Shown piece by piece: positions 7,951 to 64,000 of a DNA stretch of 64,000 bases. Numbering within the stretch: the first letter of the stretch is position 1; every line of letters begins with the position of its first letter. The notes below the pieces were generated by a model, which was not told the origin of the DNA, ran no database searches, and saw nothing but the letters and a program-made list of their open reading frames with translations. The translations under genes and the position numbers were made by a program. The stretch comes from Phoronis australis (lineage: Eukaryota > Animalia > Phoronida). The stretch lies in contig NMRA01000581.1 in the NCBI GenBank assembly GCA_002633005.1, positions 96,762 through 160,761 on the forward strand, written 5' to 3'.

Positions 7951-8555
7951 TTATTTCCCTTTTTCGAGTTTCGTACTGGGCATGTAAACTAAAATAACCA
8001 GAGTGGACGCTGTGGCAGTCAATAGAAACAACCAGAACAACAGTCTATCCAACACGTATGCCACAAGTCTCCATTCGTTAGCGATATCTTCATGACGATC
8101 CTGGCAATCCTGTCGAGCAACCAGCAGTTGAAGATGTTTAGCAATTATGTCGACATTATCTCCCCTGCCTAACAGAAATCCCAGTTCCTTTCTGGGATAG
8201 TTTATTAGTTCTATGTTTTCGTCTGTTTTGATATGCATATGACCCTTTTCATGTTTACTGTACCCAACATTCGCGTCTTTGAGATCTCTTTGGTTTCCGT
8301 TCTCGTTTGCGTGATGCAAATTGTTGCTACTAGCCAGCGGTATGCTCTCCTCAACGACCGCGAAGTCTCGTTTTAGCATCTCGTCGTCTACGGACCTATG
8401 AACGCACAGTATTCTGGCAAGGAAGTCGAAGACCACCCGCCGAACCCACTTGGGAACTGGTCTTTGATGAGGAGTGGAGTGGTGCAGCTGCAGCACTGTC
8501 ACTGTCAACATTATGGAGAATGACGTCATCGCCATGGTGGTGGTCAAGTACAGGC
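7951..8555 (-). CDS. nAChR alpha9/10-like subunit, last exon (TM3, cytoplasmic loop, TM4)
   Basis: Acceptor tttccctag|GC, phase 1. Encodes (G)LYLTTTMAMTSFSIMLTVTVLQLHH...PVPKWVRRVVFDFLARIL...EWRLVAYVLDRLLFWLF...*, diagnostic nAChR motifs. Confidence 0.97.
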
Positions 8556-9399: not shown

Positions 9400-9754
9400 C
9401 TATAAGCGGCACGAACTCTGAGGTAGCAGGCATACTTTCAGCTATCAATAACATGAAGACAGAAAAGGCGAGAAGAACAGTGATTCCCAACGTGATCTTC
9501 TCACCAGAATCTGGTGGCAACCAGAAACACAGAAGACTAAGAACAGTGAGCCAGAGGCAAGGGAATATCACGTTGAACAAGTAGTAAAGCGTTTTCCTGC
9601 GGATACGGAGGATGAAGGTCACGTCTGGATAGGGTTCATCGCAACACGGGTACTTGACTTCGTTTCGTTCGACTACGATGTCTATAAGCTCCCATTCTCC
9701 CGAGAAGACGTAGTTGGAAAGATCGACTTCGTCAGATTTGCTGACCAGGTCTAC
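9400..9754 (-). CDS. nAChR exon 5 (loop F, loop C, TM1, TM2)
   Basis: Acceptor ctacag|GTA and donor ATAG|gtgagt, 355 nt. Encodes VDLVSKSDEVDLSNYVFSGEWELI...YPCCDEPYPDVTF...PPDSGEKITLGITVLLAFSVFMLLIAESMPATSEFVPLI. Vicinal CC marks an alpha subunit; the GEK motif indicates cation selectivity. Confidence 0.97.
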
Positions 9755-11889
9755 CTGTAGGTGGCGCGAAATTCCAATAGTTAATGTATGCTTAAATTTC
9801 ACGTGAACAATGGACGTGCATGTAAAGAAGGTAAAACAATTGATTTATAAAGCAGAACTAACGGCCCATCGCCATAAGCTTGATAAGTAAAAAAATTAGA
9901 TTTCATTTGGTCAAAACGCTTGAAAGGGTGCCCTGGTATTCCTTGCTATAGCGGTCTTTCGTCACACAATAGATATTTGTTGCTAGACTGCAATGCCTTT
10001 GAAATATTATTTGAACATTGCTCACTTTCTGCCAGTCTAGTGAATGTAAACATTTGAGATGACGCTCGTTAGTGACACGTTGTTATAAATAATCCACAGA
10101 CTTATCTAAAGGTGTTTTAAAACGGATTTTCTTAGTACGCAGTGCTGTAAGCCCCGAAACGGTGAAAATAACGGGACCTAGCTCCTTATTTGTGATCACG
10201 ATTCAGCTGATTGTGGGTCATTGGCACTCTTGTCGTACAAATCAGCAGTGTGAATGAGAATATTTTGGACGGTGTGAGCGGTACTGTATGTGGATCCAAC
10301 TATTTCTTTAGCTGAAGATGCCGGCAACACAGATAAAGACAGAACACAGACACAATCGACGACGTGCAGCTGGTCAACTAAGGCAGTGCACAATGCTATA
10401 CCAACGTCACCCACCAGTTGACATATTGCTGACTTATTATAACGTGGCAAATTTGCCGCCCGTTTTGGAAATTTAATAAATATTAACATAGACCCTAGGG
10501 AGTGTTAAGTTTGTAATTAAAATTGGGATTGAAATAATGACTGGGGTGCATTCCGAAATTTATTTAAAATTTCGACATCAAAGTGTCTTCTAGGAGCAGG
10601 CAATTAGTGGTTTCAGGCTTTAACTTTTAAATCAATACACCTGTGAATAAGAGATAACCATCATTGATCCCTATCCATGTTAGTTACTGGTTCTGGACGA
10701 AACTGGCTCTAATTCGCTGGTACCAGGTAATAATTCGTTGATAGATAGCTCATTGGTCAAATCGATGTGCAATAATGTGCATAGCAAATCCGCTGACTTA
10801 TTAAGCCAATTATCACGACTTGTATACCTCTGGAAGGCCGTTTGTCTTCAAAAATTCAGTCTTGCCTTTTGAAAGTGTTCCAAACTCTTAAAGGGACTTT
10901 GTCAAAAACGCCTTGTAAACGTATATGTAATTGGAGTGTACCTACAGTTCATTAGAGGGGAGGAAATTCGAAAAAGGTGGTCGCGTGGTCTTAACCACGT
11001 TAGAAAACCAATTATTAGATTCCCTGTGCCCATTAAGCACTGGGCGAAATGTTTAAAGTCATGTGCGGGAAACATGAGTCATCATCCGACAGGTTGTACG
11101 TACGGCTGTCTTCAAATGATTCACCTCAGGACATATCAGTTACACAGGTAGCAACTAAATGTTTTTGTTTGTGAGCCGTGTTGTTTTGGACAGGGTGTCA
11201 GTACGGGAGGACTCGAATTTAAATCTAGCAAAAGTTGTAACTTTATTATTCATGGGCCAGATTGATGTTTCAAAAACGATTTATAGACTTTTGCTTAGAA
11301 GAAAGACACTCATCAGTAACACAAACCATGAACAGAAAAAATAAATGTTTCAGTGAAGAAAGGCAGGGTTGATTTTTAACACGAGCCAACCAAACCCAGA
11401 GAGGAAGTCCTAGCCATGATACTGTCTCCACATTCTCAACTGAAAAAATGAGTGAAGTTGAGATGTGCGCAAGATGAAAGAAACCTGACCGGCTACGTCA
11501 GCTCGATTTATCTTAAAATTCGCCATATTCACCTAATGGTTTGGTTTGAAAAAAAAAATGACGCCATGACCCGCAATGGCGCCACGGGTCCGACTAAGTC
11601 CAGAGAGCCACGAGCAGGAATGCGTGGCCTTTAATAAAGTGATCCGCATAAGGGCAGAGGAATGTTTTAAAATGCAAACAAATATGGCCCGTGTACCATT
11701 TTTCGAAATTTCACCTATCCCGAGCCTGGCGTATGCTGTGTTGTAAAACCTCAAAGCGACCTTGAACTCGTGCTTTCTGTGATTTAAGCCATTTATTGTT
11801 ATGAAATTGGTCTCGAAATTTTCCAAATATTCACAGTAGATTAGATTTTATGATTTGGAAAGAACTGATACCTTGTCCTGTAGAAATAA

Positions 11890-13170
11890 GCTTACTTGAG
11901 ATGGCTTGAAATCGACCAGGAAGAGTGTGTATGAATCATCAGGGCTGTGGCAATACCAGAGCAGCAGCTCTCACTGGCTATGACAGGGCATTATACAATT
12001 CAGGAGAGGTATGTGGACAAGTCCTTATCGAAGCGTATTGAAAAGGCGCGATTTAGAGTGTATCTCACGTGATCACTTCCGATGGCTTGAAACATTACAC
12101 CAAGAACGTAGTAGCTGTACTTCAGATGGCACAAGAGCGATGCTGAGGTGCAGTGGCGTTGAGAATTTGTCATCTATTTGTCGAAATGCAATCCTTGATG
12201 TCATGGGGCCGATCTGCTAGCTAGAGGTATAGTGGTAATGGAGTGACGTCTGAGGCAACTATTATGTGGTACCACCAGCTCTAAGCTTGATGATAAAGTT
12301 AAAGATGTGCAAGCAGCTCTTCTACAAGATACTCATCCTTAGCGGTTGTCTGCAGATCCCATAGTGAAGCTGAGTCACTATGCCCAAACAGAAAAGGAGG
12401 TCATGTCGTTGTACTTGCCGTTGAGCTTTTCCACCAGTTCACATAAGGAGACACTGATCACACGGCATATGAGTGCATCACCCAGTGGCCCTGGCCATTA
12501 AGTTACCAAGAAATTGCAAAGTATGCTTCTCCGACACCATGATACAAAGGCAAAGACATGCACTTAGCAGACACGTTGTCGCGAGGATTTCGTCACGTAT
12601 TTCTGCAATCGCCAATGATCAAATAGTCCCAGAGAGGTCTGAATAAGTTGTGTTCACATGTCAAGCCTTTCAAACCTACAGTATGTACCCCCAAAGTGTC
12701 GTATTTACTTCAAGACGTCTGACATTACACGGAAAGCGAGTACTTGCGCCACATTCTTAACGTTAGAGGTTGAAGGAGAAATCCACGCCTCTCACGTGGG
12801 TGTACATGTAGAGGGTTGCTTCAGAGAAATCAGACAGTGTCTGTTTTGATCAAACATGAACATAGAATTATAAAGAAAAATGCTCTATCTCAGAAACAGT
12901 TTGGATCATCTAACGAACGAGAAACCTTGCGTCCCCATCAAACACAGCACATTGTGCACAATCGTGCGTACAGTCCTAGCGTCTGTTGACTACAGATATT
13001 TCGGGAATATAGACCGCCTTGACAACATAAGTTCCGTGGCAGTGATTTGAAAGCTGAAAACCAGTTTTGGTCTTCGGTATTCACCATCTTCTAATGCCTG
13101 CCAACGGCTCGCAATTATCATCCTAAGACTTCACAGTATATTCCTACTATCTACGTAGGAGATGGACCAA
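11890..13170 (+). mobile_element. Heavily decayed Ty3/gypsy LTR-retrotransposon pol fragment (RT end, RNase H, integrase) in nAChR intron 4
   Basis: Frameshifted remnants in pol order: YAQTEKE (RNase H), GKDMHLADTLSR, EIHASHVG...EGC (integrase zinc finger), VDY...IDRL...AVI.KLK, and an NG.Q-like core motif. Many stops; boundaries approximate. Confidence 0.8.
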
Positions 13171-14001
13171 GTCACGCGCATAAAGTCTGCAGTTTAACTT
13201 TACTCTCATGACCGCACCCAGACTAAAACATGGGGGGGGGCTTGAATTGGTGAGAATGTGCACCTTTCACTAAAATTCACAGGGAACGTAGTTCTTGACT
13301 TTTTAGTGGACTTTGTGTCGTGTTCTAATTTTTTCGGAGTTTTTGTTTCTCTGAGGCTGACAATTTCGCCAAAGGAGCCCCCGCCACCCTGTGGGTGACT
13401 CGATTAAAGCAGTTAATTAAGAAAACCTATGATCCAAGAGATGGTTTCTAAATAGACACGCTAGACAAGCGAAATACATCTAGTCAAGAACAAGACACTA
13501 AATATGTACAGAGATGAATGTACAGACGCTTGCAGACACCATTACACATGACAATTAAGCTACTGGTTCCACTAGTGACAAGAGAATGTTCTCGCAGTTC
13601 AAGTAAACCGGGGTTCTGATGTGCATTTGCAAGCGAGGTCTGCCTCCAACTGACATCTTTTTCCACTCCGTTTTATTAAATTTCTAGTTATTAGTGACAA
13701 AGTTATGACTGATACAATATTATAGCTTAGCTTGGCACTAGCCCGATTCTTGGTAGTGCAGCGTATAGTAATTTCACGTGATTTCACGTACGGGCTAACA
13801 GTTTTAATTTTACATGTTATTATCGTCTAGATGCCCTTTTGTTGATAGCGACCACTAAGCGGTGGATGGAAGAGATCAACACTAAAAATGGCGACCTAGT
13901 CAGTACATGTAGAAATCCACTGTATATTCATTTAAGTTCGTTTAAAACAACACCAAGAACGTAAGTCAGGAATGGAAAGTAGATTAGAAACTGCTACGTG
14001 C

Positions 14002-14182
14002 CTGAAATCCATCGTAAGTCCAACTGCCAAACTTCATTCGACATTCTTGATCATCAAAAGGAAAGTAGGTGATGTCAACTTTACACGAACTGCGTATTTT
14101 AGCTGGGGGTGGCCAAAACACGTTGCCTTGGTAATCTATCATTGCTTTGCTCTTCATGTAACCGCTAGTGAATTCATCAGCA
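14002..14182 (-). CDS. nAChR exon 4 (loop E, Cys-loop, loop B); absent from the ORF track
   Basis: Acceptor tattccag|T, 181 nt. Encodes (S)[60 protein letters not shown]; ends at the non-canonical donor CAG|gcacgt. Confidence 0.96.
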
Positions 14183-15270
14183 CTGGAATAGTTGAGAGAA
14201 CATGCATTTTAAGTAAAACTGTACCTTCCGTACATGTTTTTGTTGTAACATGTAGCTAGTGCATCACTAGAACACCTCAGTAAATCTATACATTCTAATT
14301 AACTTACGTTTTACGACGCACTCAATATAATTAACCATCAACAAAACGATTCACTATATTTTCCAGCTCATAACCGCACAACATGTTTACTACAAATGTC
14401 CAAGCCAAGACATGGGCAATGACACCCGACGATCATCTTGCTTTCCTGAACAGAGCCACTCATGTCCAGAGGTGGTGCTGTGACATAGGGAGTGTACCGG
14501 GTGCACATATGCAGTCCTACATAACGCTACACATACAGTTCCACCACGAAGGTCATTCTCGGCAATTTCCGACTGACGTTGCCCATCTTTCCAGAGATTA
14601 CATTGTTCTGAATGCTTACATTTTGAAAATATTTTGTATTGTATTTTCCCTGCAGTCGTAATGAATGGATTTGCGTTTAGTTCCTGTGTCTTGATCATGC
14701 TCCCACAATCGAGGCACATACGTCGAACATAAATATTATTACGTGAATACAATTCAAGCGCAGTCTTTCGGAATTGGACAATATTATCACCCTGCCTAGC
14801 TCTGTGTTTGTGTTGCTATGTGTACAGAATATCTAATATTGCCATGTAATTTATGAGGTTGGTGCACATTAGTCGAAAATGCCTATCTCAAGCTTCTGGT
14901 CGAGTCATTGACCTTGCAGGGCCTGTTTGGTAACCTGAGAGTTGACTTTGGACAGATGGTAGCTGTTTAGTCATTTCTATAGTACGATAAACTGATTCAG
15001 ACTTCTGACTGCTTAAAATTCACTAAACTGGAGTGATTTCTACTATTTACATGCATCTACGTTTACTAGCAGTGCAAGTTGCTTTGGATGAGCGGTAACC
15101 CACAAACCTTTATGTGTGGGGCGTCTCACGGTATCCGTAAAAAGGTCAAGTGACCTATCGCCAGGATTTTGAGTGACGGCTTAACTGACTAATCAGAACG
15201 CAACATTCTTGACACACCTTCGTTTCCAAGCCGCCATTTTAATCCGACAAACAACACGTTGCCGGTACTA

Positions 15271-17139
15271 GGCCATAGTCCATTCGACTCTGGAAGCCTA
15301 GAAAATCACTTCCGTGGCTACTTTTGGAGGGCAAGATAATTTTGGTGTTTTTAAGGTCATTAAGTACTATACTTTAAGAATCTAAAAGTAAAAGTTGCCA
15401 AAGTTTGACTTGCACGTTTTCAGGAAATTTGACCTATACTCTCTGACTTTTTGCAAAATTTGGCATAGAAAACCAAACTTCAAAAACCAACAAAACTAGA
15501 CCCAAAAAGAATAATAATTTGATTGGGTTTTGATCATTTGAAGTAACTGGGCAAGAAAAGTGATAAATAATATGACATTCTATGGAAAATTGCTCAAAAA
15601 ACATGCGCGCACCCAGCCTTCAATATGGGGGGCTCAAATTCTTTGCGATGCGGACCTTTCACTAACAAATTAGTCAGTCGGCTAAAAAAGAACCACTGTC
15701 GGAGCTGAACGTGCTGTGAATTGTGGGTTTGTTGCACCTTTTTAGTGGAATTTTATCTCGTTTTCTCGGACTTCTTGTATCTTGTCCACTTCGCCAAAAT
15801 GGGGGGCTCGTTCGTTTTTAGCAGCGCCACTCGTTGGCCAGAAAACAAACTACTATATTCTGAATTATCAGAAATTCTAATGTTAGCCATTTGGAATTTA
15901 ATAAAGATTTGATATCGCAACCTACATATGAGCAGCACACATTTCCAACGTTTCTGCAGTGAGTTCACGCTTTGTATGTTTGTTCATCCACTTCATTGTT
16001 TCAATTCATCATTTTGGTCATCAAATGTTGTTTCTTGAGACACCGGGTTCACAATCTCGGCAGTCACACAACTTTGAACATGGCATGACCGACTTCAAAC
16101 AAGAGCACATTTTTGTACTACAACCACTCTTTTGATATTTGCAATTAACATTTTTCATGACATTTTCTGGGGCTAAAGGCTGAGTCATCCAGTGGAAATT
16201 CAGACTACTCTACTCCAAAAGCCACCCGTTACCAACTGGAGATGGTGCACTGACATGCTGTTGCAAGGCTCGTTTGTGAATTGCACTCTGGTATGTAGCA
16301 GCAAACAATTATGATTGGGAGACAGAGATGATTCCAACACAGATTTCAACCTGAATATGTGGTAGCATGCTTTCCTGTTGATGATGAGTCGCCGTACAGC
16401 TTGCAATCAAACTGTTCAATGTTTTCCATGAGTTGACCAGGAAACGCAAAGTAATGTTGAGTCCAACTTTACTGACAAAGATTTAAAAGTATCTCTGCAA
16501 GCCGGCACCCTACCCGGAATAAAATTTTTGTCAACCAGAATAGCGTTTCATCTAAACACTTCATACTTGTTACAGTAATCTTTTTTACTGAAACAGATAA
16601 CCAAAATGCTCTTCATTTCAGCACAGTATGACCAACAAGTGAAATTTTATTTTGTCAAGTGATCAGCAGAAGTAAGCATTAAGAGAAATGAGCAACATCA
16701 CTAGAAATTGATTGCACCGGCGTCTTATTTACCATGGAGCTAAAATTTCTTTTGACGATTCCTGGTTTAGATAGCACATAACTGGAAAAGTAAAATCAGT
16801 GGCCAAGCCATCAGGATAGCATCAGTTGACTGTCGTCTGATGAACGCTTTCATGAAGCAGATAACTTGGGAAAGGAAGAGATACGGACACAATATTTTCC
16901 TGGCATTTCATTGGCTGTTCTGATCATTTTGCACTGAAACCTGGTGGCATATTAGTTTAGGCTAAATTTTTCCAACTTTATATCAAAATTATTTTTAAAC
17001 GTGCAAGTGTATTCTTTGGAACTTTTTTGAAATTGACTTTTGAACATCTGTAGATGGGTTTAATGCAAAGTTCCCGTTGCCCCCCAAAAGTAGCCACGGA
17101 GGTGAAAGATAGGAGAGCCGGGCCTATGGGACTATGGCC
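15271..17139 (-). mobile_element. Degenerate, internally deleted Academ-like DNA transposon in nAChR intron 3
   Basis: Diverged TIRs ggccatagtcc...ccgtggctacttttgg / ccaaaagtagccacgg...ggactatggcc. Minus-strand remnant IHKRALQQHVSAPSPVGNGW...HWMTQPLAPENVMKNVNCKYQKSGCSTKMCSCLKSVMPCSKLCDCRDCE matches the CXC/Cys8 C-terminus of XPG-containing Academ proteins. Confidence 0.7.
15605..15835. mobile_element. MITE nested in the Academ-like element; related copies near 530-700 and 13230-13400
   Basis: Shared blocks such as ttttagtgga, ttcgccaaa and G/C runs recur at the three loci. Confidence 0.4.
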
Positions 17140-17712
17140 AATAAAACTTATTGTTTGATTGTCATCGACAATTCGCAAGGAGGCGGAGCTTGCGATAGGC
17201 CAATTGCAAGTCTTAACTGGTTGATAGTGACTTCCGGTGCTGGAAACGACTGATGGAAGCACCGACAGTCGACAGTGATCGCGGTTTTGGGGAAGATACT
17301 GTTACGTATACGTGAAAAGCAAAACTGAACAAGATTACCATGTGAGCGACTTTTTAAAATAGATGTTGAGGCGTTTTTAATTTTATATAAATGAATAAGA
17401 AATTGAAAAATAAGTTACTAAGGATAAGTGAAAGATGCACGACAAGTCGGAAATAACTGGGTTAAGAAATTCGCTTCCGCAAGATGCCGTTGAGTGAAGC
17501 TTATTCGCATGCGATTGTATGGAAGCATTTGGCCAAAAATTTGAAAAGGGCGTTCTTTCGGTTAAATGAGCATGGGCCAAAATCGAAACATACATGGTAA
17601 TGAGGCAATTAGACGAACAGTTATGTTGATGGCTTCATGGTTACGCACGTTATGTCTTATTTTTAGCCTCCATCTTTTGTTTTCTTAGCAAAGCGACAAA
17701 TTCTTGCGTCAC

Positions 17713-17867
17713 CTGTTGTAAAGCACTATATCCGGTAGCCATATCTTGTTGCACGGTACCCGCAGTTTCTTCAAGCCGTTGTAGTCGTCCGGGTTCCAAT
17801 GCAGTCTCTCGTCCACCCAGTCTTGTTCTAACCAGACATTTGTTGTCAAGATCTGATTGACCTCATC
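17713..17867 (-). CDS. nAChR exon 3 (beta2/loop D to loop A); absent from the ORF track
   Basis: Acceptor ttttttctccaag|GAT and donor ACAG|gtgacg, 155 nt, phase 0/2. Encodes [51 protein letters not shown](S). Confidence 0.97.
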
Positions 17868-20294
17868 CTTGGAGAAAAAACGGTGAATTAGCGGTGATAG
17901 AAACTTGTACAGTCAATGCCATCCACAAGCGATGTTTATAAATTTTTTTGTCGCCTTTCTATGAAATGACAGTAAAGCAGGAGCTGCGTTTCGTAGACCG
18001 CAAGATACAAGCTTGCACTTAAGGGGAAAATTTTCAGTTATGGAACGGAAATAGTACATTTAACCCCACAATTCAATATTGCAACCTCACCGACCAATCA
18101 GACTTCAGAGACCCCCAGTTTTCTAGAGTAGAGCTCCCAGACGAACTCGCAAAAACATTCGCGTGATTTTACGTGGTTTAGCGCGATCTTACTTTTCTAC
18201 GGAACACTCTCCTGCATAAATACGACCTCCATGGATCTTTGTTGTTTTGAACAAAGTTCCACTTCTAATATTGCGCACTCAGTATTCACATGCTTGAAAT
18301 TTCCCCTTACTTGGATAAAATATCTCAATGCCGGTGTACCCGACTCATGGCAGTTTTACCGAGCAACCTTCAACGGTAATTCAATGAGTTGCGCTCCCAA
18401 TAGCGAATGCAGTGCAAAGCAAAAATAGTTCCCTCGTATGCTCATTGTGAACAATGTAATAGTCACATACAAAGGCCCCGCAATTAGGATCACAAAGTGA
18501 AATGCATGTCTACACTACAGTACGTATAAAAAGTGAAACCTGAGATTGCGCTAATTGCAAGGTGGAATTAACGTCGATGGGAAAATTGCCTTCAACAAAT
18601 TCACTGAGCTTTGCAGGAATATGCTCACGTCATAGATAGTATAAAATATCACAGACAACGAATACGTAAATTATCAACCTGTAAAGTAAGCACTTCGAGA
18701 AGATATTGCTGTTACAACTTACAAATTGTGTTTTCTCAGATATAATAAACTCTAAATTGGTGTCGGTTCTGACATTATCGACCACAAGCCCAGCGCACAC
18801 GGTGCAATTTTTCGTGGCCCACAAAAAATCGTAGCGTGTCCACCCAGCTTTAAACAACAACATTGACAAACAGCGCATGCGATTGAGACACAACACGAAC
18901 ACTGACAAAGATCAATCAACACTGTACATGTAGCTATTATTTAAAAACATGAAAAGAATGTACACTTTGAAGTGAACAAAATGACACAGAACGAAAGGCT
19001 AGGACAGAATTAGGGTGTATAACTGTACTTTGATTTTTTCCCACAATCCCAACAACATAAGAGAATCATCATTCAGTGTAAGGCCGCGGATAATCGTGCT
19101 TTTGAGTAGGCCACGTCCGCATTCTCAGTGCGCACGTGATATTGTTCGAGAAAGAATGGGCGTCAAAACAGATCGTAAAGGAAGCAAAATTACGGCTTAA
19201 ATGTTTTATGTAGAATTCAAAACGCTAAAATTCGAGGTACTCAAAAACCAGAAAATTTACTCTAACGTATGAAAATTAGTAAACCGGAAAAGTAATCAAA
19301 GCATTTCGATCATAAAACTGACACCGTGCAACGAAGCAAATTCATTTTTGAAAAGATTTCAGTCATTAATTTTCTTGGAGCTGACTTTTCAGTAACGACT
19401 TCTGTCACAAGTGCCTTTATTTAGGCGTCTGTAACAGAAAAAAAACTAATTCGGTGACCCTACGTTTTCGCAGATTTGTAAGAAGCTAAGGCCAAAATAC
19501 AAAATATGAAATAAAAAATCAACGATAAATTAAATCTGTGTCGAACCCCATTAAATGTATCGGTATTGAAGTACACACCCAGTGACGCACTGATCACCTG
19601 TTGATTACTGTTGGTTTAAGAACTTATTCAGGCAGACTAGGCAAGCGACTTTTTGATTGCAATCTGTCTGGATTCCGCTGCGTGTAATGACATAATTAAA
19701 TCTGGCTATTATTGGGTGTAGCAGTAGAGTTAATATTTCGCAGATCCGCTTTCGCGGACAATAAGGTACTTGATTACACAGTGACAAAGAAACGTACTGT
19801 AATGTGAAGGGAAAAAAGCAACAATAAGGAAACGACTAAGGAAAAAATCGATTTTGAGCTCATCTTAACAAGCGACAGGGAGATTCGCCGTCTTTGTAAG
19901 AAAGGCTAGACTCGTATTAATGAAGCTCTTGCGCTGAAGTTGTCTTTGATTGCAGTAGCACTACGCCCACCGATAAATATGCGTGTTGCAACAATCACGC
20001 CAGTCTAAGTTGAACGACTTTTAGGCTTACGACCAATTCTGTGCATGCAATGAACACGGACAGGATTTCGTTTCGTGAAACGATCATTTAGCAAACGGAG
20101 ACTTGCAATATGCGAAGGTGACTGCTGATTTCTCTTTACGTGGCCTACGTCATTTTGATAATCATGACTCCCGGCCACGGAAAGTGATTGCTGAGACAGG
20201 GTTTAGGATTTGAAAGTGTACATTGTGAGGCGATTGTGACATGTTTAAACCAATATTTTCGAAATTGAGATTCATAACGCTAAATTGTCGTGAG

Positions 20295-20336
20295 AGACCG
20301 TCCGGAGTTGGTATATGGTGCAACTCCGGACGGTCT
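20295..20336. repeat. Perfect 16-bp inverted repeat with 10-nt loop
   Basis: agaccgtccggagttg-gtatatggtg-caactccggacggtct; a second 13-bp hairpin lies at 20453-20480. Confidence 0.85.
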
Positions 20337-22799
20337 GGACTCGACGGAATACCACAATTCTATTGTTAGTCAACAACAGTGTGATAAACGAGAGTAGTGC
20401 TACTTGCCGCGCCACCTGCAGGTTTCATCATCTTTTTTACGACACTGTTTTAACATTTACACGTTAAAACGTGTAAATGTGCAAAGCCTTTTCAAATTAG
20501 TGTACATAAGCCAGTGAAGCATGAGACCCCTGAGGTCCCTGTCAAGTCCTCACGACAATGCCATGTTATGTGTCGACACAGTATATCTTATGTCAATCCT
20601 ATAATATTCAAGATTAGATTGTACTCGTAATTTGGAACGCTTCCAAAAATGCCGTTATCGGTAATAATCCGATGACTTTCAACATACAAATCTATGTTTC
20701 CATGTTCCATCACTCGGGTAACAATTAAGTGTCCGGTGCGACAAACGTGCATTGGACAATAACACAGATCGTGCCCTCCCCACGTTCCCAATGTGTCAAA
20801 ACTAGCGGACCCAGGGTTTTTAAATGGGGTCGGACCAAAGATTTTTCTAAAAAGGGGGGTCCAAGTCATCAATTTGAAAATTCTAGAATTGATATCATTT
20901 AAATCAAGAGAAAAGTCTGGGAAAGGCCCGGTAAAGTTTTAGACTCACAACAGTTGTTCGATCTCTTAACACTGCTGTTGCACTAACTTAGAACTTGAAG
21001 TACCTCAAATCGAGGCTCTAGTGTCGAAACAGCTGTGATGGTCATACGATTATCTTTCATTTCATGTAACACATGTGTTACTCAGATATTTTTCCCAATG
21101 AATGACAACAAAGTTTGTAGACCTAACATAGCCACAGGAGGCATTATCGGTTATGAATGAACTCGCAATATTTTTTCATCAAATCCTTTTGTTCAGGCAC
21201 ACTACGACAAGCTACTGAAGTGAAAAATGGTGGAACCGTCCACGATAAAGAATGCGTTGCTGCTAGAGAAACCCCACGGTCTGCCTCCAGAATTACGCCA
21301 ATATGTTCTGCAAAAAATGTTGCGTAGCAGTGTTTCTAGAAATAAAAATCAAGAGCAAACTTTCCTAGCAATATGTCCCTGAGAAGGTGTTGCAAACTTT
21401 ATTCAGTATTTATTACTTCGTACATGTGCCGTATTGCCGAGCCATTAGGCCCTTGGGCGTCTGTGCAGAAATCCTCTTATATGCGAAACTTAGGGGCATG
21501 CGCCACTTGGACAAAAAGGCTGTGAAAGAGGCATTATTTTGGATACAGACCCACAGGCCTAAAGACAAGGGAATATGGTAAATGCTGTTTAGGAAAAGCA
21601 CGTCAATTTTTAAAGAGAAAACGGGTACGCCTACATGCCAATTAATGTATGGGCCTGTGCAGCGGACATTATCTGATCTTATATGCAAATCGTAGGTCGC
21701 AAAAAAGCCATTTTTGAATATAAGCCCATGGGCCAAAAGGCACAGAAATACGGTACGTTGGTACTCCTGTATGGCTATCAGGTCTTCATTGCAGGAATCC
21801 TTTGAATATTTTGAAAATACGACTATTTGAATTTTAAGGAAAGACATGTTGTTCGTGACATCGCATTTAAAACTGTTATAAATTCAGCGTCCGTAAAACA
21901 TTATTGAGGTAGTTGGGAAACATGTATAAAGCTGGTCTCAATCTGTTCCTTACTAAGATTAGAAGTAATATCTGGGTTTAGAAAGAACTGGCAGCGTCTT
22001 GTTGCCTGACTCGTGACTTGTTGCCTGACACGTGACTAAAACTGGTGTGTAACAGTGTGTACATTTATGGGCGGGTAACTGTCCAGGCCAATGTTTCGGA
22101 TATCATTTTCAGGATTTTATCGAGGGAAATTACAGATCTATTTATAAAATGTTATTTTTGATATTCAGAGCATTTTTTGAGAAAACAAATAGCTTTCCCA
22201 CTTAAAAAATCCAAAATGGCGATTTCCCCGTCATTCATAAAACTGAGTTTTTGTTGAGGCTTCTTTCAGAAGAAAAACAAAACACTTGTTATGCGAATCT
22301 TCCTTTAGTAATCCCCAGAAAGTTCTGACAAATAAATATTTGATAAAATGCGCTGAAAACGGACTGAAAACACAGATATTCACTTCATTCTTAATGATCA
22401 AATTCTGTTCAAAGCGTTTTTTTGATGCTAGCGGGAAGTCATTGGACATCCACACACTCACGACTTCGCAGACATTGGTTGGAGAACTCGTAGTACACCA
22501 TTCGGAAATGTTACAGGTACCAGAAACTGCTACCAAAATCTATTCAGGGAGGAAGGGAAACGAAATTTGTTTTTTTGCACACGCAGTACAAACCTTGAAA
22601 GAATTATGCTCAGCGATCAAAACAGCAGTCGCTAATGGGAGATAAATCCAATCACGACTGGAAATACTATTGAGTGAGTGCCACCTGTTAGGCAAATATC
22701 TCATTTTTTCAAAATTGCTTAGATTGTTTACTTTTTGTCAATAAAAGCACGGCCTCAGTGACTTTTAGACTTTACGTCAATTAAAACATCTCTTATAGC

Positions 22800-23250
22800 T
22801 GATTCCCACGCTGGCTAAACGCTAGCACTTTTGTTAGCAGCAAAAAACGTCTCAATGTGAACGGTCGAAAGGGTCAATTTTGCTGGCGCTTTGCAGATGG
22901 TTTGAGTTACCAAAAAACTACTGGCGTTTTTTGCTAGCACTTTTGTAGCCAGACCGCTTACTTCAAACGACACACATAATACGGTCTTTTTCTATTGTTA
23001 CACCAGTCAATAATTAAGGCACAGAGTGAACATGTTAAAAGCGAGGTGGTGAGGAAACGAACTGCCTGCTGACAAAAAACAAGTAATTACCACTTCACTG
23101 ACAGCTCATGTATCAGGCTAAAATCACAGCGTTTAGGCTAGCGTTATAGCCACTGAAACTGCTAGCATTTTCGCCCCTCACTGTGAACCTACACTGTTTC
23201 ACAGTGCTGCAGGTGGCGCTGTGTCAGAGTGTAAATGTGAACGGGGTGTG
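22800..23250. mobile_element. Dispersed repeat, likely a non-autonomous DNA transposon; second copy at about 49610-49960
   Basis: Collinear similarity, e.g. tagcagcaaaaa...aatgtgaacggYcgaaagg...tttgagttacc...gcacttttgtagccag in both copies. Confidence 0.7.
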
Positions 23251-23436
23251 AAAGAGTATAGATACCCCGGCAACTGTACTTGACACAGTTGAAAATAATC
23301 ATAGTTAAATAACTGTGTTCTCACACTAAATATTGTAGGCTGCAACAGACACCTTTGCTTCTCAACTACACGACAGCAAGACAGCTACAGTCACAGAACT
23401 CAAATGGTTAGTACGGATTGACGACCGGAGATGTAC

Positions 23437-23597
23437 CATGTCAATGATCGTTATTAACGCTAAGTTCAACACGATGACGGCGATGGCAGAAGAGTTAATG
23501 ACGGGTCTCGAGGCAGGTGTGTAACTGACGAACAGGTCTTCAAACAGCTTGTGCTCCTCTCCAACGAAGTTTTTTGACCGCGCTTTTCGAATGAAGG
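23437..23597 (-). CDS. nAChR alternative exon 2b (N-terminal helix, RPV motif, beta1)
   Basis: Acceptor ccattccaatgcag|CC and donor ATG|gtacat, 161 nt, phase 1/0, open frame. Encodes FIRKARSKNFVGEEHKLFEDLFVSYTPASRPVINSSAIAVIVLNLALITIIDM. Confidence 0.85.
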
Positions 23598-23941
23598 CTG
23601 CATTGGAATGGTAGTATGAAGAACGTACAATGACATATAATTGTAAGTCATGCAGATGGGCTTTTGTGCTGATCACTGCGATGTCGTGCCAGCACCGATT
23701 ACGTATACAAGTACGTCAGGCAGGTAAAATACGCGCGAGCATTGAATCGTACGCACGGACGTGTGCGTGGTCAGCACTAATCTCACCGCAAACCCTTTTG
23801 CGCGAACATAAACTGTCATCCGCGCAAGTATCGAATCGTCCGCGCCATGAATGTGGCTCGTATACATCTACATGTACATGTCAAGTCAGTAGTTCGTAAG
23901 AATGTTTGACCTTCATGCGTATGATTGCCTGGTACCCCTGT

Positions 23942-24038
23942 GTCACTTGCAGGGGGTCCCGCATTTTGAGAACCAGTTTCCTGTATTGAATAACAAACAT
24001 CAAACTGGTTATCAAAATGCGGGACCCTTTCAAGTGAC
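23942..24038. repeat. About 37-bp inverted repeat (hairpin or mini-MITE) between exons 2a and 2b
   Basis: gtcacttgcagggggtcccgcattttgagaaccagttt ... aaactggttatcaaaatgcgggaccctttcaagtgac. Confidence 0.85.
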
Positions 24039-24253
24039 TATATTTCGCTTGCGATAACTGAAAACTAGTAAAGAAACTTATGTGATGCGATTTGAGCAAA
24101 ACAAAATACGGGCTGTCCTATGTGATGTACACATTCCAATTTCATGGTAAGGAATTCGAGTAGAATTTTACAATCTCTAACTAGCCTTGGCGGAAGTGCA
24201 AAAATCATTTACAAATAAAAATCACGCTTATTTTGTAAATTCAATGTTGTTTT

Positions 24254-24385
24254 CAGTGGCGGACTTAAAGGGGGCCCTAAAATTCTCCCAGATTTCATTT
24301 GGCAGTGCGGGGGTGCGAATGTCTGAAGAGTAAAATCCTGGCTAATACTCTGCCCTGCCCCCTCAATATCCTGGATTCGCCCCTG
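24254..24385. mobile_element. CAGTGGCGGA-type MITE, same family as 49364-49522
   Basis: Ends cagtggcgga / gattcgcccctg; internal aaattctcccagatt...ggggtgcgaatgtctga...taatactctgccctg shared with the second copy. Confidence 0.75.
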
Positions 24386-25446
24386 AATCCAGTCCAGTTT
24401 ACTAAAGAAGATTCAATCCCTTTAATGCAATCATACGCCGTCTTGGTAATTGAGTATTGGATATTGAGTATTGGGTATCGAGTAAGTATCAGCCGATGGC
24501 TAATTTGTTTACAGTGCGAAAGTATCCGATGATAGATAAAATGTCCATCATTGGATTATTGAACATTCAGTCTCATAGTGTGAATTCACTTGTAACTTAA
24601 TAAGGTCAACCCTCTTTCGTAGAATAAGTCAAGAGGGACAAATCAAGCGAGTCTAAAAAATCAATATTGTCAATAATTAAGAGAAATGACCCAGTGCTAT
24701 TTATATCGGCGTAACAGTGCGTATTACAGGGCATGCTACTGTTGGTTTGTGTAATTTGTCAACCTATTATCAAGATTCATCGAGTTGTTAAACTCAATAG
24801 TGCCATAAAAATAATCCTGTCGGTGGGGAGCGAGGCTATAGTTTACTTAGTCCCCCTAGCCTCCTATGGTGCGCCGCCCATGTAATAATTAAATGTAGAT
24901 GGAATGCCCTATCAACAAAATCAATTCACTTTCATCCAGTCATTTCCCGTCGGGAAAGGTGCACCAAAATCACGAACAACATTTCGGGTATTTTCGTAGC
25001 CTCAAATTAATCCTCGGGGTGTTTCATATCTCAGTGCGCATGTGCGAACTTCAATCAGTCCATCTTAATTGTCACGTATCTCCCAAAATGGCCAAAGCCG
25101 TCGAATGCCCCAACGTCGCTAATGTTGACTGAATAATTATACGGTGGCCGGTTTGGTTTCAGCGTAGGTATTACGCTGAGAGACATCATACATGCTTGAT
25201 TTTTAAAAATGGACAATAAAGTGAAATTGAGTTCATCAAAAATTATTGAATTAACAAACTAGGATAGATTTTTATCTAAATAATTCATGCACATTCCGCT
25301 GGCCGCAATCGAATTAATGAAGACGAGATTTCCCGATCAAAATATACTCAACCGACTGGCACGACATCGCTACATTATGAAGGGTGGCCAAAGGAATCTG
25401 ACTCGTGGGAACCACAAAACTGACACCTGTCACATGGTTTACTTAC

Positions 25447-25652
25447 CATATCCGGTATCATGATGAGAGCGTAACCAAACGTGATGGTGACGTTGTCAGA
25501 AGCGTTGAGAACAGGGCGGGCGCTGGTGTCATAGTCGTTAAACAGAGTAAACATTAGGCGTTGTTCGTCGGATAAGTTTTTACCGCCGTTTATGGGCGGT
25601 TTTTCTGAATAAATGCCCTGTTTTGAACCACCCTTGCGAGAAATGGCTGCAG
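25447..25652 (-). CDS. nAChR alternative exon 2a (N-terminal helix, RPV motif, beta1)
   Basis: Acceptor tttattgcttctttag|CT and donor ATG|gtaagt, 206 nt, phase 1/0. Encodes AAISRKGGSKQGIYSEKPPINGGKNLSDEQRLMFTLFNDYDTSARPVLNASDNVTITFGYALIMIPDM. Confidence 0.93.
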
Positions 25653-26336
25653 CTAAAGAAGCAATAAAGAAACGAAAAACAAAATCCAATGAACATCAAC
25701 TTTCGTCAAAATATTTGTTGAAATGTAAATTATCTTAAAGATAGTCTTTCCTTTACAATAACCAATTTAGAAACAGGGTGGCTTTCGTCCATCGAAATGT
25801 ATCACCAACGTATACACATTTCGTAATTTTCAGAACAGCAGTTGAGTGATTACAATGATGCACGAGTCAGCTGTCTCTCACTACGGCGGACATTTTGGGT
25901 GGCGGTGGACCACCAAAAGTACAATTTAAACTAAAAACATTATACTGAATTTAGTTAAGTTGGAAATATTTTGTTTTTTTTTAGAATTGACATTGTTTGA
26001 GTTTAACCTTCTATTGAACTTACTTGCGTTGAAATCCGCTTAATCAATTTTCAAATAAAATTTTACGGAAAGAGTATCCTTAAAAAAGAAATAAAATTAT
26101 GAAACAACTCATGTAAACAAAACTAAGATTGAAAAATTCGGAAATATAATAAAATTATAATTAAATAAAAATACAGATAACCGTACTAATAATGATAAAA
26201 TGATCGTAAAACAAGGATGACTATAATGTAAATTGAATACTTCTTGAAGCTGTAGGTCCAGATTGGGAATATTATTTGTAACTGCACATGAAATGGAAAT
26301 TCGAATAGCGAAAAGGCTTTGAAGACATCTACTTAC

Positions 26337-26427
26337 CGTCGTGAGACGAGTTGTATTTGAGCGACGACACACACTCGTTGAGAAGAGCGCAAACCAGAGC
26401 GGCCATGATAACAATTTTTCCCGGCAT
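26337..26427 (-). CDS. nAChR first coding exon (signal peptide)
   Basis: ATG at 26427 gives MPGKIVIMAALVCALLNECVSSLKYNSSHD, then phase-1 donor G|gtaagt compatible with both 2a and 2b. An upstream acceptor catcttttacag (exon start 26445) implies a further non-coding exon. Confidence 0.85.
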
Positions 26428-29400
26428 TATCTCACCGTGATGACACTGTAAAAGATGCAAAGCACCCTTTTTCATTTCAGCAGCATATTTTGCAAATCAA
26501 TTCCCGTTCAATCAAAACTTGGCAAACCAAGACCGTTAAACGGACCAGAGAAGACGGAGAGCTACGCGCCTCGAACGCAAATGAGCTCAGCGGCAACAAC
26601 AACCGTGATGACTTTGCCTCGCGAGGGGTGCAGCGAATGTTTCACTTTCTCTCACGTCACCAGAGTAAATCGTCACAGCATGCGGGCGAGATGATATGAG
26701 CTAAGTGCTTTGCCGAATACAACTGATAACTAACTAAAATTAATTATTGCATCGCCTGACAACAAATTTCTCAGAGTCGTTCATTGTGTACTTTATTTGT
26801 GCTGTTTACTACAAACGCAGATTTCATGTCACCGAGCATAACCATGGACAAATCCGTTACATCTGCTAAAAAGACATCAAAATCTGGTGATTAAGTGACA
26901 CCTGGCGAGACTTCTGTGGCGTCACAAAAATGACGTAGTTCTTGTAGTGTCTGATACATTTCGCAACTGAGATCTTATGCTGCTAAGTTTTGTGACCTAT
27001 TAACCTATAATAAGATAAAAAGCAACAGTCAGTAAATGTACTAAAAATAACAAATGGAAATCGATGAAAATTACGTGTCACCGATGGACCGTAATATTAC
27101 TGTATCGCTGAATTTATGGCAAACGCTCAAAGATGCCTTTTTGAAAATTTAAAGGGTAACCAGGGCGATATTTCTTAAAATGTGGATAAAATGCCAACGA
27201 GAGTGATGATTACTATGGTAAGCGCACATTTCTAAGGCAAGAATGCGCGTACGTGTCTCGGAAGTGTGACTACGTCTTGGACAACAGACGTACGTTCCGT
27301 AGTCACTAACCATTCACAATAGAACTGGTGGAATCACGTTCTTTGCTTGCAATGCATGGCGATGTTTCGCAGACTTGTCTGGTTTTGGCTTTTCGTGAAG
27401 TTTTGCGTGTACGAAATGCAGCCCAGGGAAGTTAACACACACGTGATAAACATCGTAGGCGATCGAACTATCGTGTTAAAGCGTAAAACCTGTTTACATA
27501 ATCAACAAATTTCCTGTAACATTGTTGATCAACATGAAAAGTGGTACTCTCTCAACGACGCTCCACTGTGTAAACTACTCCGTTAAGGTTATGTACCACC
27601 TTACCGGCACGTCTGTTTAGCCAAATATCTACAAAATAATAGAATTTAACTCAGAGAGAGTATTCTGAAAGTGCAAAGTGTTTAGAATGTGACATATTCC
27701 AATCTGCAAGTATTTGGGTCACGTGGCCATACATTTTTAGTAAAATTTAGTAAAAACAATCATAAAAGACTCGCAACTGAGCAGTTTCCCATGGGTGTGT
27801 CTTCTGTGCCAACTAGCATGCGAGCTTCATATATTGGATCTTTCAACAGGAATAAGCGTGCGGTGAGGGTCACGTGTACGCCGTTGTTTTGCGTTGAAAC
27901 CTCAAACCCCAAACACTTTAGTTGCCAGTCTTTCCATTTTAGCGATGAGGGTCCCAGGTTGCGGCTGCCCATTGGATAACTCCAAACGCTGGTGGGGGGT
28001 CACGCGATCCCTGATCCCTCCCTAGTTGCGCCCCATTGATTTAGGCAAGTGTCAATCCCATTACGGACAGGATAAAAAGCTGTTTCTATAGGTCTAAGTG
28101 GAACATTTTTCATTCCAAAATTGTGATAGGTTCCTCTCTTAAAATGATACAAACCCCTGTTTTGACCTAATAACAGATATTAAAAACATCTTATATATCC
28201 AATTCCCTGAGACAAAATAATGCTCTGTAACCCATCGACAACCCTCAAAAGTGTGGAGGACATTTTGAAAACTCTTTTCAAAATCTGGTAAACAGGCAAG
28301 CGTGACCTACGGTTTTAAGGAATTACACGGCAACTGTGTGGAAAAACACCAACGAAGAACCTTTAGTTTTTAACCTCGGACACAAGGAGTATGATTTTTT
28401 AGCTGATTCTTGCTTTTATTGTTTAGTATTGGCGCCGATGGTGCATTAGCCGGTGACAGCACGAGGATTGGCTTAAATCATCAAAACAAGGTTTAGTATC
28501 CTTAGAAAGTGCGCCAATTACTGCAGTTAAATTGTTGCATATAGAAAGGAAAGCTTAGGCAGCATGTTCTGGATCAGCCAACCGAAGATGTCTAGGCCAT
28601 GTGACGGTACACGATAAGCAAAATGTCAGTCTTAGTGGGTGAAGAATACACCAGACGTGCATGAATATGAGGAAAGCATATCTCCGGAAGCGTTTGAATG
28701 GCATTTTGAGAATGCCTCAATTGTCATTTGATTCTAAATCTAGAGAAATGGCTCGGCTTGTTAACATAAAATGCAGCGAATTTGATGATATAAATCAGAG
28801 GAAGGTGTAAAGTGTACCTTTCATGCATCGATCCCAGGAACCGGGCGGCTCCGCAACGCTGGAAAAATTAGTTTACAGTAAGTTCCAGAAGTTGTGATTT
28901 GTATTTCTTCGTATTTTCATATCATCTTCGACACTTGATATTTTTCAGTCATGATCTTATAGAGACACCCATCTTCAAGAAATATCGGCATTTCAGTTGC
29001 CTCACTGAACGCTGTTTTCTGCTCTAGTCAGTGATATTCAATATAAAAACAAAACAGTTGATTGAACTGTCGCAGTTAAAAAACGTTCCTGCTCATGTGA
29101 CGTAATTACCTAAGGTACCCTCATATACCGTCGTCTTCGTAGTCTCGGTCAATGACACTGTTAAAATTCACTCGTTTGAGTTTCTATTGAAGCTCTAAAG
29201 TCGACACCGAGATCGGCTTAATATTAACAAATTTGCGTATTCAATCAAGTATCCACAACTTTATAGATTTTATCTCCGTAAAGGTGTATTTTTATGAAAT
29301 CGGGAAAAATATGGAATTCAGTTTTGACTTTTTACTAAAATTTAGCAAAACGAAGGCATCAAGAACATTTTTTATGTTCCGTCATACGAACGTGGGGCCT

Positions 29401-31092: not shown

Positions 31093-32132
31093 TTTACTGT
31101 ACAATTTGTAATCATTATAGCTATGTTAATAATACCCCCTTCCGTTCAGTGACGCTAGGATCTCACAGAAAAAGCAATACTTTGCGAGATTACGTGAGAT
31201 ACTGTCATGTATTTAAATGAGAACACATAACTTAAGCTAGATTTTCACTGGACGCACGCCAGGGCTGCTCAATTTGAAAAATTAAAAAAAGAATTATCAA
31301 GTTTATTAAAATAAAGTACATTGAGGATGTATGAGCTGTTGGAAAATAAATTTGTGCGCCAAACTACCAGTGTTATGCTACAAAAATTAAAAACACAGTA
31401 TGAGTTTGTACATTTTAAAACTGGCCCGTATACATGCATGATACCAGGACTGAAAGAAAATGAGCGTAGACTTGAGAATCGGGAATTCTGGAAGTTTCAG
31501 CAAAAACGAAAATCAAAAGGCCGGCTTTTACTCTTATAAAATAGGTCTCATAATATTTCAGACCACAATAGAATTCTATTTCCGTTACCAAGAAGAACAT
31601 CAAAACCATCAGTNTTACTGAACAATTTGTAATCATTACAGCTATGTTAATAACACCTCCTTCTGTTCAGTGACGCTAGGATCTGGCAGAAAAAGCAATA
31701 CTTTGCGAGATTACGTGAGATATTGTTATGTATTTAAATGAGAACACATAACTTTGGCTAGATTTTCACTGAACGCACGCCAGGGCTGCTCAATTTGAAA
31801 AATTAAAAAAGAATTATCAAGTTTATTAAAATAAAGTACGTTGAGGATGTATGAGCTGTTGGAAAATAAATTTGTGCGCCAAACTACCAGTGTTATGCTA
31901 CAAAAATTAAAAACACAGTATGAGTTTGTACATTTTAAAACTGGCCCGTATACATGCATGATACCAGGACTGAAAGAAAATGAGCGTAGACTTGAGAATC
32001 GGGAATTTTGGAAGTTTCAGCAAAAACGAAAATCAAAAGGCCGGCTTTTACTCTTATAAAATAGGTCTCATAATATTTCAGACCACAATAGAATTCTATT
32101 TCCGTTACCAAGAAGAACATCAAAACCATCAG
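31093..32132. repeat. Near-identical ~520-bp tandem duplication joined at an N, probably an assembly or haplotype artefact
   Basis: 31093-31613 and 31615-32132 differ by a few substitutions, and the junction coincides with the n at 31614. Confidence 0.8.
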
Positions 32133-63701: not shown

Positions 63702-64000
63702 CTGAAAAATCAACGGGAACATTTAGTCAGATTAGTTAAACAGCAACAACAATAACAATAGGTCAACTACAACAACAAAATAACAATAACATGCATAGCC
63801 ATTATGTTTAGTGTTATCATCGTCACGGGCGGAAGTAGGCAATTATCTGCTCGGGTTGTGTGTCTGTCACCACGAAATCGTGTCTCGAGCTGAGAAGAAA
63901 TTCGGCCGACTACTTTGCAGTTATTTTAAATATTTTCAAGCACCTCACAATGTTAATTAGTTCAAACTTAAGCACAAAACTACAAACATCAGAGGGACGT

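What the first reader, a model, noticed from the sequence alone, without database searches (positions are those of the whole stretch)
23437..25652. Two diverged, mutually exclusive versions of the nAChR N-terminal exon (2a and 2b)
Seen: one signal-peptide exon (26337-26427), then two homologous exons, 2a (..DEQRLMFTLFNDYDTSARPVLNASDNVTITFGYALIMIPDM) and 2b (..EEHKLFEDLFVSYTPASRPVINSSAIAVIVLNLALITIIDM), then a single set of downstream exons. Both are phase 1 in and phase 0 out, so either one gives a full ORF (530 or 515 aa), while including both or neither shifts the frame. They are strongly diverged, yet both keep splice sites, RPV, the N-x-S sequon and the terminal DM, which suggests long-term selection. 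Established: this segment forms the alpha1 helix, beta1 strand and start of the beta1-beta2 gating loop, and insect alpha4/alpha6 subunits use mutually exclusive exons at other positions. Inference: one alpha9/10-like gene makes two receptors that differ in assembly or gating. I know of no report of duplication of this exon in this subfamily but cannot search the literature here.
Basis: partly seen in the sequence, partly recalled or inferred. Interest (0 to 1): 0.85.

Follow-up and report, generated by a model that had tools for sequence, protein, structure and literature searches.

The report
Twin receptor exons with intron stem
An invertebrate acetylcholine-receptor gene carries two old, intact copies of the exon for the receptor's first helix, and only one can go into a protein; RNA reads fell at the first copy but not on the second, which is likely a rare or tissue-limited alternative, possibly governed by a predicted RNA stem between the two copies.

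Summary
Observation confirmed: exons 2a and 2b are homologous (17 of 43 residues), share phases, and give 530- or 515-aa ORFs; both or neither hits an early stop. The gene is a spiralian ortholog of Lymnaea nAChR type G. 2b looks kept by selection: 0 of 9,853 neutral-decay simulations matched its profile score. Use of 2b is not shown: 0 reads in three thinly covered RNA runs, and its donor is weak. 2a is expressed.

Two new points. (1) In 12 isoform pairs of relatives (molluscs, nemertean, brachiopod, annelid) the same gene has two N-termini, but each has its own leader (alternative first exons). Here no second signal-peptide exon was found, so this may be a separate duplication that shares one leader. 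(2) A 28-bp predicted stem pairs the two ends of the 1.85-kb intron between 2a and 2b (0 of 500 shuffles; 2 of 1,473 other real pairs), the place of the FGFR2 stem (recalled); a transposon end-repeat is not excluded.

The scan noted twin N-terminal exons before in another genome (e1-8147628). Ten paper searches found no report. Verdict: new variant of a known kind, unproven for 2b.

The parts
26337..26427 (-). Exon 1 coding part: signal peptide, phase-1 donor; the only signal-peptide exon found
   Evidence: an X4 contig covers 26337-26442
25447..25652 (-). Exon 2a: linker, alpha1 helix, beta1 strand to DM; strong donor; second in-frame acceptor at 25646
   Evidence: sense-strand depth in its bin in X1-X3; e1>2a join inferred from the X4 contig
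25342..25370 (-). 5' arm of predicted long-range stem, starting 76 nt after the 2a donor
23678..23708 (-). 3' arm of predicted stem, ending 80 nt before the 2b acceptor
   Evidence: no RNA reads on it
23437..23597 (-). Exon 2b: short basic linker, alpha1 helix, beta1 strand to DM; open frame, weak donor; candidate alternative exon
   Evidence: 0 reads
17713..17867 (-). Exon 3 (constant; loop D to loop A)
14002..14182 (-). Exon 4 (Cys-loop, loop B), ends in a GC donor
   Evidence: X4 contig length fits the e4>e5 join
9400..9754 (-). Exon 5 (loop C with vicinal cysteines, M1, M2)
7951..8555 (-). Exon 6 coding part (M3, cytoplasmic loop, M4, stop)

Best explanation
Exons 2a and 2b are old tandem copies of the alpha1-helix/beta1-strand exon of a type-G (alpha9/10-like) nicotinic receptor gene, of which only one can give a protein; 2a is the expressed form and 2b is likely a rare or cell-type-limited alternative spliced from the same signal-peptide exon, with a predicted 28-bp RNA stem in the intron between them likely biasing the choice to 2a. 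Shown: homology, phases, frame exclusivity, constraint on 2b's sequence, expression of the gene and of the 2a region, and the stem's complementarity. Inferred: use of 2b; decay of both-or-neither transcripts (stops at codons 143 and 32); the stem's role in bringing elements near the 2a donor close to the 2b acceptor, as recalled for FGFR2 IIIb/IIIc; and a protein effect on assembly or surface expression (alpha1 helix) and on the complementary ligand face (beta1, loop G; alpha7 position 34 is G in 2a and N in 2b).
For: Frame logic. Only two copies in the window. Codon-position identity 23/26/14 of 43, NG86 dN 0.69 and dS 2.27 (saturated). 2b's profile score is 45, against -0.6 +/- 11.6 for neutral descendants of 2a matched for identity; 0 of 9,853 reach it, and only 780 keep the frame plus AG/GT. 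2b keeps E4, L7, Y15, RPV-N-S, L37, I40 and DM. The 5' ends match too: from the inner AG of 2a, 5 of 10 residues are identical, the best non-self score of 2,156 AG-phase-1 sites. No ATG-hydrophobic-donor exon lies in the 2a-2b or e1-2a intron. Stem: -69.2 kcal/mol between the intron ends, 0 of 500 shuffles, while the 5 other introns are not significant; 2 of 1,473 other real window pairs reach it; 28 bp with 4 G-U pairs, -44.5 on the transcribed strand against -34.4 on the other, and present in the whole-intron fold. Orthologs express two N-termini that end at the same DM.
Against: 0 reads on 23276-23758 in X1-X3 (about 19% of each run read) and no X4 contig, while the gene's summed depth is about 8-10; this bounds 2b's share at roughly 20-85% depending on assumptions, so 2b is not dominant there. 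The 2b donor is weak: 35 of 380 intronic GTs score as well. 2b has changed residues that are invariant in 32 ortholog segments (D3, A25, G34) and has the longest ingroup branch. No 2b ortholog was found in any search. The simulations assume decay since the duplication and cannot exclude recent loss of use. All 12 ortholog pairs have separate leaders, not a shared one. The stem was noticed post hoc among 61 inverted pairs, has no conservation data, and a similar-sized inverted-repeat pair in the e3-e4 intron is a dispersed repeat.
Confidence: 0.55

Rival explanations
1. 2b is a once-functional copy that has fallen silent recently: it is now skipped always and is starting to decay.
For: 0 reads; weak donor; loss of D3, A25, G34 and Q39; long branch.
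Against: Frame, AG/GT, phase and the family profile are all intact after synonymous saturation; coverage was too low to see a minor form; a strong stem ends 80 nt from its acceptor.
Confidence: 0.25
2. 2b belongs to an alternative 5' end with its own promoter and signal-peptide exon, as in the orthologs; that exon was missed by my scan or lies outside the window.
For: 12 of 12 ortholog isoform pairs have unrelated leaders on an identical body; read-through models show a one-exon leader-plus-helix cassette upstream of the second helix exon in molluscs.
Against: No candidate in the 1,849-nt 2a-2b intron or the e1-2a intron; 5 poor candidates in 36 kb upstream; e1 is recovered as a control. No in-frame ATG in 2b's open frame upstream. 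2a and 2b share their 5' end and acceptor context.
Confidence: 0.12
3. 2b works mainly as a regulatory (poison) exon: the stem brings the 2a donor and the 2b acceptor together, 2a+2b transcripts carry a stop at codon 143 and would be degraded, lowering receptor output.
For: The stem shortens the intron to 76 + 80 nt outside the helix; double inclusion stops inside 2b; degraded transcripts would be rare in RNA.
Against: A poison role would not keep the protein profile of 2b in the other reading frame.
Confidence: 0.08
4. For the stem only: the two arms are the terminal inverted repeats of a 1.7-kb non-autonomous DNA transposon and have no splicing role.
For: The match is perfect at the outer end and looser inward; a similar 1.8-kb inverted pair in the e3-e4 intron is a dispersed repeat.
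Against: No target-site duplication in the flanks, and no other copy of the 15-mer within 2 mismatches in the window; no repeat-derived reads on the 3' arm; the looser part is made of G-U pairs on the transcribed strand; the arms sit about 80 nt from both splice sites.
Confidence: 0.3

Closest known systems
Insect nAChR alpha4 exons 4/4' and alpha6 exons 3a/3b, 8a/b/c (PMC2064938, passages read)
   Same: Tandemly duplicated alternative exons in a nicotinic receptor subunit gene
   Different: Those exons cover loop E/Cys-loop and M2 (exon 3 position not stated in the passages seen); the passages hold no 'exon 2' case; different subfamily and phylum
Insect GluCl exon 3A/B/C and RDL exon 3a/b/c (PMC13512814 and PMC2064938, passages read)
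   Same: Mutually exclusive exons in the N-terminal domain of a Cys-loop receptor, near loop D, with pharmacological differences between forms
   Different: Anion channels; the exons lie near loop D and are not described as carrying the alpha1 helix; both forms are shown to be transcribed there, not here
Annotated isoform pairs of the type-G ortholog (e.g. Lineus XP_064619929/30, Lingula XP_013393011/12, Octopus XP_029633438/39, Haliotis XP_046574361/62)
   Same: Same gene; two versions of the alpha1/beta1 segment ending in DM, joined to an identical body
   Different: Each form has its own leader (alternative first exons); core identity 21-32 of 43 against 17 of 43 here; here one signal-peptide exon was found
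FGFR2 IIIb/IIIc intronic stem (Muh 2002, Baraniak 2003: titles seen in reference lists; texts not held; architecture recalled)
   Same: A long-range stem whose arms both lie in the intron between two duplicated exclusive exons (recalled)
   Different: The FGFR2 stem was tested by mutation; here it is only predicted, with no conservation data
Competing docking/selector pairings of Drosophila srp and Dscam (PMC4691838 abstract and passages; PMC6071210 passages)
   Same: Long-range intronic RNA pairing beside duplicated exons
   Different: Those stems loop out an exon and compete; this stem loops out no exon, and no significant competing partner was found

Membership tests
Nicotinic receptor alpha subunit | Neur_chan_LBD and Neur_chan_memb domains with a Cys-loop | tested here: met
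   Pfam hits on e3-e6 above the curated cut-offs; C-x13-C in e4
Nicotinic receptor alpha subunit | Vicinal cysteines in loop C | tested here: met
   YPCC in e5
Lymnaea type-G / alpha10-like ortholog group | Body closer to the type-G group than to paralogs | tested here: met
   77-84% identity over 268 aa (234 for one partial row) to 17 group rows, against 63-65% to 9 paralog rows; nested in the group at 85/84, not starred; P0032 is named type G
Mutually exclusive duplicated exons | Two homologous tandem exons with the same entry and exit phase | tested here: met
Mutually exclusive duplicated exons | Inclusion of both or neither gives no full protein | tested here: met
   stops at codons 143 and 32
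Mutually exclusive duplicated exons | Each exon is found in mRNA between the same flanking exons | tested here: inconclusive
   2a region covered and e1>2a inferred; 2b has 0 reads at low coverage
Mutually exclusive duplicated exons | Both exons conserved in related genomes | not testable with these tools
   No eukaryote genomes held; no 2b ortholog among proteins
Alternative first-exon cassettes (as in the orthologs) | A second ATG plus signal peptide that serves 2b | tested here: not met
   None found in the introns or in 2b's frame; crude scan, window only
Competing docking/selector RNA structures (Dscam, srp) | One site with two competing partners, or two stems that each loop out an exon | tested here: not met
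   Second partners of the 5' arm (at 25851-25886 and 19983-20024) do not stand out from real windows (8 of 81 score as well); the two putative selectors are not significantly alike (191 of 1000 shuffles)
FGFR2-type between-exon stem | Long-range stem with both arms in the intron between the exclusive exons (recalled) | tested here: met
   (prediction only)
FGFR2-type between-exon stem | Covariation, or disrupting and compensatory changes that alter exon choice | not testable with these tools
   No congener sequence, no bench test
DNA transposon terminal inverted repeats | Target-site duplication and dispersed copies | tested here: inconclusive
   No duplication in the flanks and no other copy in 64 kb; no reads on the 3' arm; whole genome not held

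The most novel reading that the evidence does not exclude
The type-G nicotinic receptor of lophotrochozoans has long made two N-termini from two promoters, a choice visible in annotations of molluscs, a nemertean, a brachiopod and an annelid but apparently undescribed. In this lineage the choice was re-invented as a splice switch: a new tandem duplicate of the helix exon shares one signal peptide and is controlled by an FGFR2-like long-range RNA stem. The same two-way tuning of the receptor's assembly helix would then have evolved twice by different mechanisms.
Probability: 0.3. Interest if true: 0.72.

Novelty: new variant of a known kind. Interest (0 to 1): 0.5.

Why it matters
The alpha1 helix helps decide whether and how nicotinic subunits assemble (PMC4786271, passages), and beta1 carries loop G of the complementary binding face (PMC11265914, passages). 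A natural swap of just this segment, kept across several phyla in one gene, would be a ready-made experiment on assembly and ligand tuning in the poorly studied invertebrate alpha9/10-like receptors. The stem gives a specific, mutable element for testing how a pair of duplicated exons is kept exclusive outside insects and vertebrates. If 2b is silent, the local finding shrinks to a well-preserved relic, but the two-N-termini pattern in the orthologs stands.

Tried and rejected
No genome is held for the window, so no genome-wide repeat or paralog search. Run search with 2b: no RNA holder listed (not evidence either way). Protein search with 2b among longer proteins: 14 candidates, none at E 0.01. 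HMMER with 2b over 1.84 billion representatives: 10 hits at E 0.001, best identity 47%, none a 2b ortholog; I read 7 of the 10. Metagenome scan with 2b: 1 locus, an off-frame bacterial chance match, rejected. Trees of the 43-aa core: unresolved under the mixture model (2a+2b together in 20% of bootstrap trees); sisters at 98/57 under LG+G4 with the alpha7 row left out and a long-branch warning; the short-leader and long-leader classes are clustered but not clades. A third exon copy, also with stops read through: none. Competing docking/selector partners: not significant against real sequence, although one beat shuffles (0 of 200). The hairpin at 23954-24027 lies in a dispersed repeat by read pile-up and was set aside. 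Steric exclusion by a short intron: the intron is 1,849 nt, and 76 + 80 nt remain outside the stem; not supported. The script failed after its first half; the simulation was redone. Five paper look-ups failed (Dscam exon 17 twice, a 2018 review, two FGFR2 papers). No structure or complex prediction was run, as spliced isoforms cannot be given by reference.

Full report
Observation. On the minus strand, e1 (26337-26427) ends in phase 1; 2a (25447-25652) and 2b (23437-23597) both enter in phase 1 and end ATG|GT in phase 0; e3 starts at 17867. With e4 14002-14182, e5 9400-9754 and e6 7951-8555 the ORFs are 530 and 515 aa; both exons give a stop at codon 143, neither a stop at codon 32. The e4 donor is GC. 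A profile from 78 relatives' 43-residue segments finds only 2a (E 1e-17) and 2b (E 3e-10) among 2,263 ORFs of the window, next best 0.31, also with stops read through.

What gene. e5 finds 510 proteins at E 1e-30 among 793 candidates; the best single-domain hits are alpha10-like proteins of nemerteans, annelids and molluscs at 80-85%. The constant part is 77-84% identical to 17 members of the group that holds Lymnaea type G (name), and 63-65% to 9 paralogs. It nests in that group at 85/84, nearest to two nemerteans, without a starred branch. The animal is thus likely a spiralian; I did not place it further. Loop C has vicinal cysteines; the residue before M2 is E, which by recalled knowledge predicts a cation channel.

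Is 2b kept or decaying? Over the 43 aligned codons 2a and 2b share 17 residues; nucleotide identity by codon position is 23, 26 and 14 of 43; NG86 gives dN 0.69 and dS 2.27, and two other methods failed from saturation. Of 30,000 neutral descendants of 2a, 9,853 matched the observed identity; 780 of these kept the frame and AG/GT, and none reached 2b's profile score (45.4 against -0.6 +/- 11.6). So 2b was under protein-level selection for most of its history. Against this: 2b's score equals the lowest among the 78 relatives, it has changed D3, A25 and G34 (invariant in 32 ortholog segments), its donor is weak (35 of 380 intronic GTs score as well; weights recalled), and the test cannot see recent silencing.

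RNA. Four runs with the same species label were laid on 7500-27000. The gene is weakly expressed in sense: summed depth 7.6-10.4 on e3-e6 and 9.6 on the 2a bin (4.2 without X2, whose value may include repeats). An X4 contig of 196 nt has 106 nt on e1; the depth in the 2a bin (1.18) equals 8.52 x 90/651, so its other 90 nt lie there. The e1>2a join is inferred this way, not listed, because repeat-derived joints filled the table. On 23276-23758 there were 0 reads in X1-X3 (18-19% of each run) and 0 contigs in X4. About 7-16 reads would be expected if 2b were the only form, which bounds its share at 19-85%. 2b is not dominant in these samples; a minor or tissue-limited form is untested.

Relatives. 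I listed 30 clusters. Eleven showed two N-termini on one body, giving 12 pairs: Lineus, Owenia, Patella, two Octopus species, an unnamed cephalopod-like set from run contigs, Biomphalaria, Haliotis, Lingula, Mytilus, Crassostrea and Bradybaena. The other 19 did not, many being singletons. In all 12 pairs the body is 99.8-100% identical, the cores share 21-32 of 43 residues, and the leaders share no word longer than 3 residues. Read-through models show one form as a single leader-plus-helix exon placed upstream of the other helix exon. These are annotation models whose RNA support I could not check, apart from the contig-derived pair. So relatives most likely use alternative first exons. Here no second signal-peptide exon was found in the 2a-2b or e1-2a intron, and only 5 poor candidates in 36 kb upstream, with e1 recovered as control. 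2a and 2b are equally far from both classes (2a 20.9 and 21.9; 2b 15.6 and 16.3 of 43). They share rare residues (F12, A36, no Q39, no aromatic at 23) and a 5' end (5 of 10 residues from the inner AG of 2a; best non-self score of 2,156 sites). Trees give them as sisters under one model (98/57, long-branch warning) and leave it open under another. A lineage-specific duplication is the better guess, not a result.

A stem between the exons. An inverted-repeat scan of 22400-26500 (61 pairs) showed a perfect 15-nt GC-rich pair at 25356-25370 and 23678-23692. It extends to 28 bp with 4 G-U pairs and small bulges, is 10 kcal/mol more stable on the transcribed strand, and forms in the whole-intron fold; 76 nt separate it from the 2a donor and 80 nt from the 2b acceptor. 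The two 130-nt intron ends pair at -69.2 kcal/mol against -46.5 +/- 5 for shuffles (0 of 500); the ends of the 5 other introns are unremarkable; 2 of 1,000 intron shuffles have a perfect stem of 15 or more. Among 1,474 real window pairs 3 reach that energy, one being the stem itself. It was found post hoc, and a transposon end-repeat is a real rival: a 1.8-kb pair in the e3-e4 intron is a dispersed repeat. But no target-site duplication, no further copy in the window and no repeat reads on the 3' arm were seen. Competing partners of the srp/Dscam type were not supported.

Mechanism. Most likely (0.55): e1 is spliced to 2a by default (strong donor) and to 2b in some cells; double or null inclusion is removed by premature stops (inferred); the stem brings elements near the 2a donor close to the 2b acceptor, as recalled for the FGFR2 IIIb/IIIc stem. 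The swap changes the N-terminal linker, the alpha1 helix (assembly and surface expression; PMC4786271 passages) and beta1 with loop G of the complementary face (PMC11265914 passages). The core aligns without gaps to mature alpha7 residues 1-43. Rivals: recently silenced relic (0.25), unseen own first exon (0.12), poison exon (0.08).

Literature. Ten full-text searches gave no report of alternative alpha1/beta1 exons or alternative first exons in this subfamily; six were aimed at that question. In PMC6896357 (lophotrochozoan nAChRs) the words isoform and alternative do not occur in the main text; PMC8414863 mentions type G expression but not splicing; PMC8634148 passages hold nothing on it. I saw passages only (plus abstracts where stated), no supplements, which may list isoforms; most subscription papers, including the original Lymnaea and Aplysia cloning papers (recalled), are not searched. 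Known analogues are insect alpha4/alpha6, RDL and GluCl exons. The scan's own note e1-8147628 describes twin N-terminal exons in another genome and the same pattern in relatives. I had reached the ortholog pattern before reading it, and it is not independent support; the lead to PMC2064938 came from these notes.

Verdict. A real, old duplication in a known class of events, at a position and in a subfamily that I could not find described. It adds two points: relatives appear to make the choice by separate leaders while this gene has one, and a strong predicted stem joins the ends of the intron between the copies. Use of 2b is unproven. Interest 0.5; new variant of a known kind.

Noticed in passing
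window 14001-14002 (minus strand, end of exon 4): The e4-e5 intron starts with GC (CAG|GCACGT); the lengths of an X4 contig fit this join.
   Followed up: partly
window 25646 (minus): A second in-frame AG 6 nt inside exon 2a matches the 2b acceptor context; which AG is used is unknown.
   Followed up: partly
window 26446-26475 (minus): An AG with a pyrimidine tract lies 19 nt before the ATG, and an in-frame ATG lies 48 nt upstream; exon 1 may be internal, behind a non-coding exon.
   Followed up: no
window 23570-23597 (minus): The 2b linker has an R-x-x-R motif, and long-leader forms of relatives have basic runs at the same place; a processing site is possible (motif recalled).
   Followed up: no
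window 31094-32097: A tandem duplicate with a 520-nt period, 94-99% identical, with an N at 31614; possibly an assembly artefact.
   Followed up: no
window 62674-63726 (minus): A 351-codon open frame with a Pfam MFS_1 match (E 8e-7, below the curated cut-off); the next gene upstream.
   Followed up: no
window 15306-15334 and 17077-17105; 60050-60617: Inverted-repeat pairs that look like transposon ends; the first draws many repeat-derived RNA reads.
   Followed up: partly
P0248 (unnamed protein): Two tandem alpha1/beta1 segments with N at alpha7 position 34, as in 2b; perhaps another receptor gene with the same duplication.
   Followed up: no
P0023/P0210 and P0172 (Dimorphilus and an unnamed look-alike): The same helix segment appears behind different leaders or an extra linker, so leader choice may vary apart from the helix exon.
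   Followed up: no
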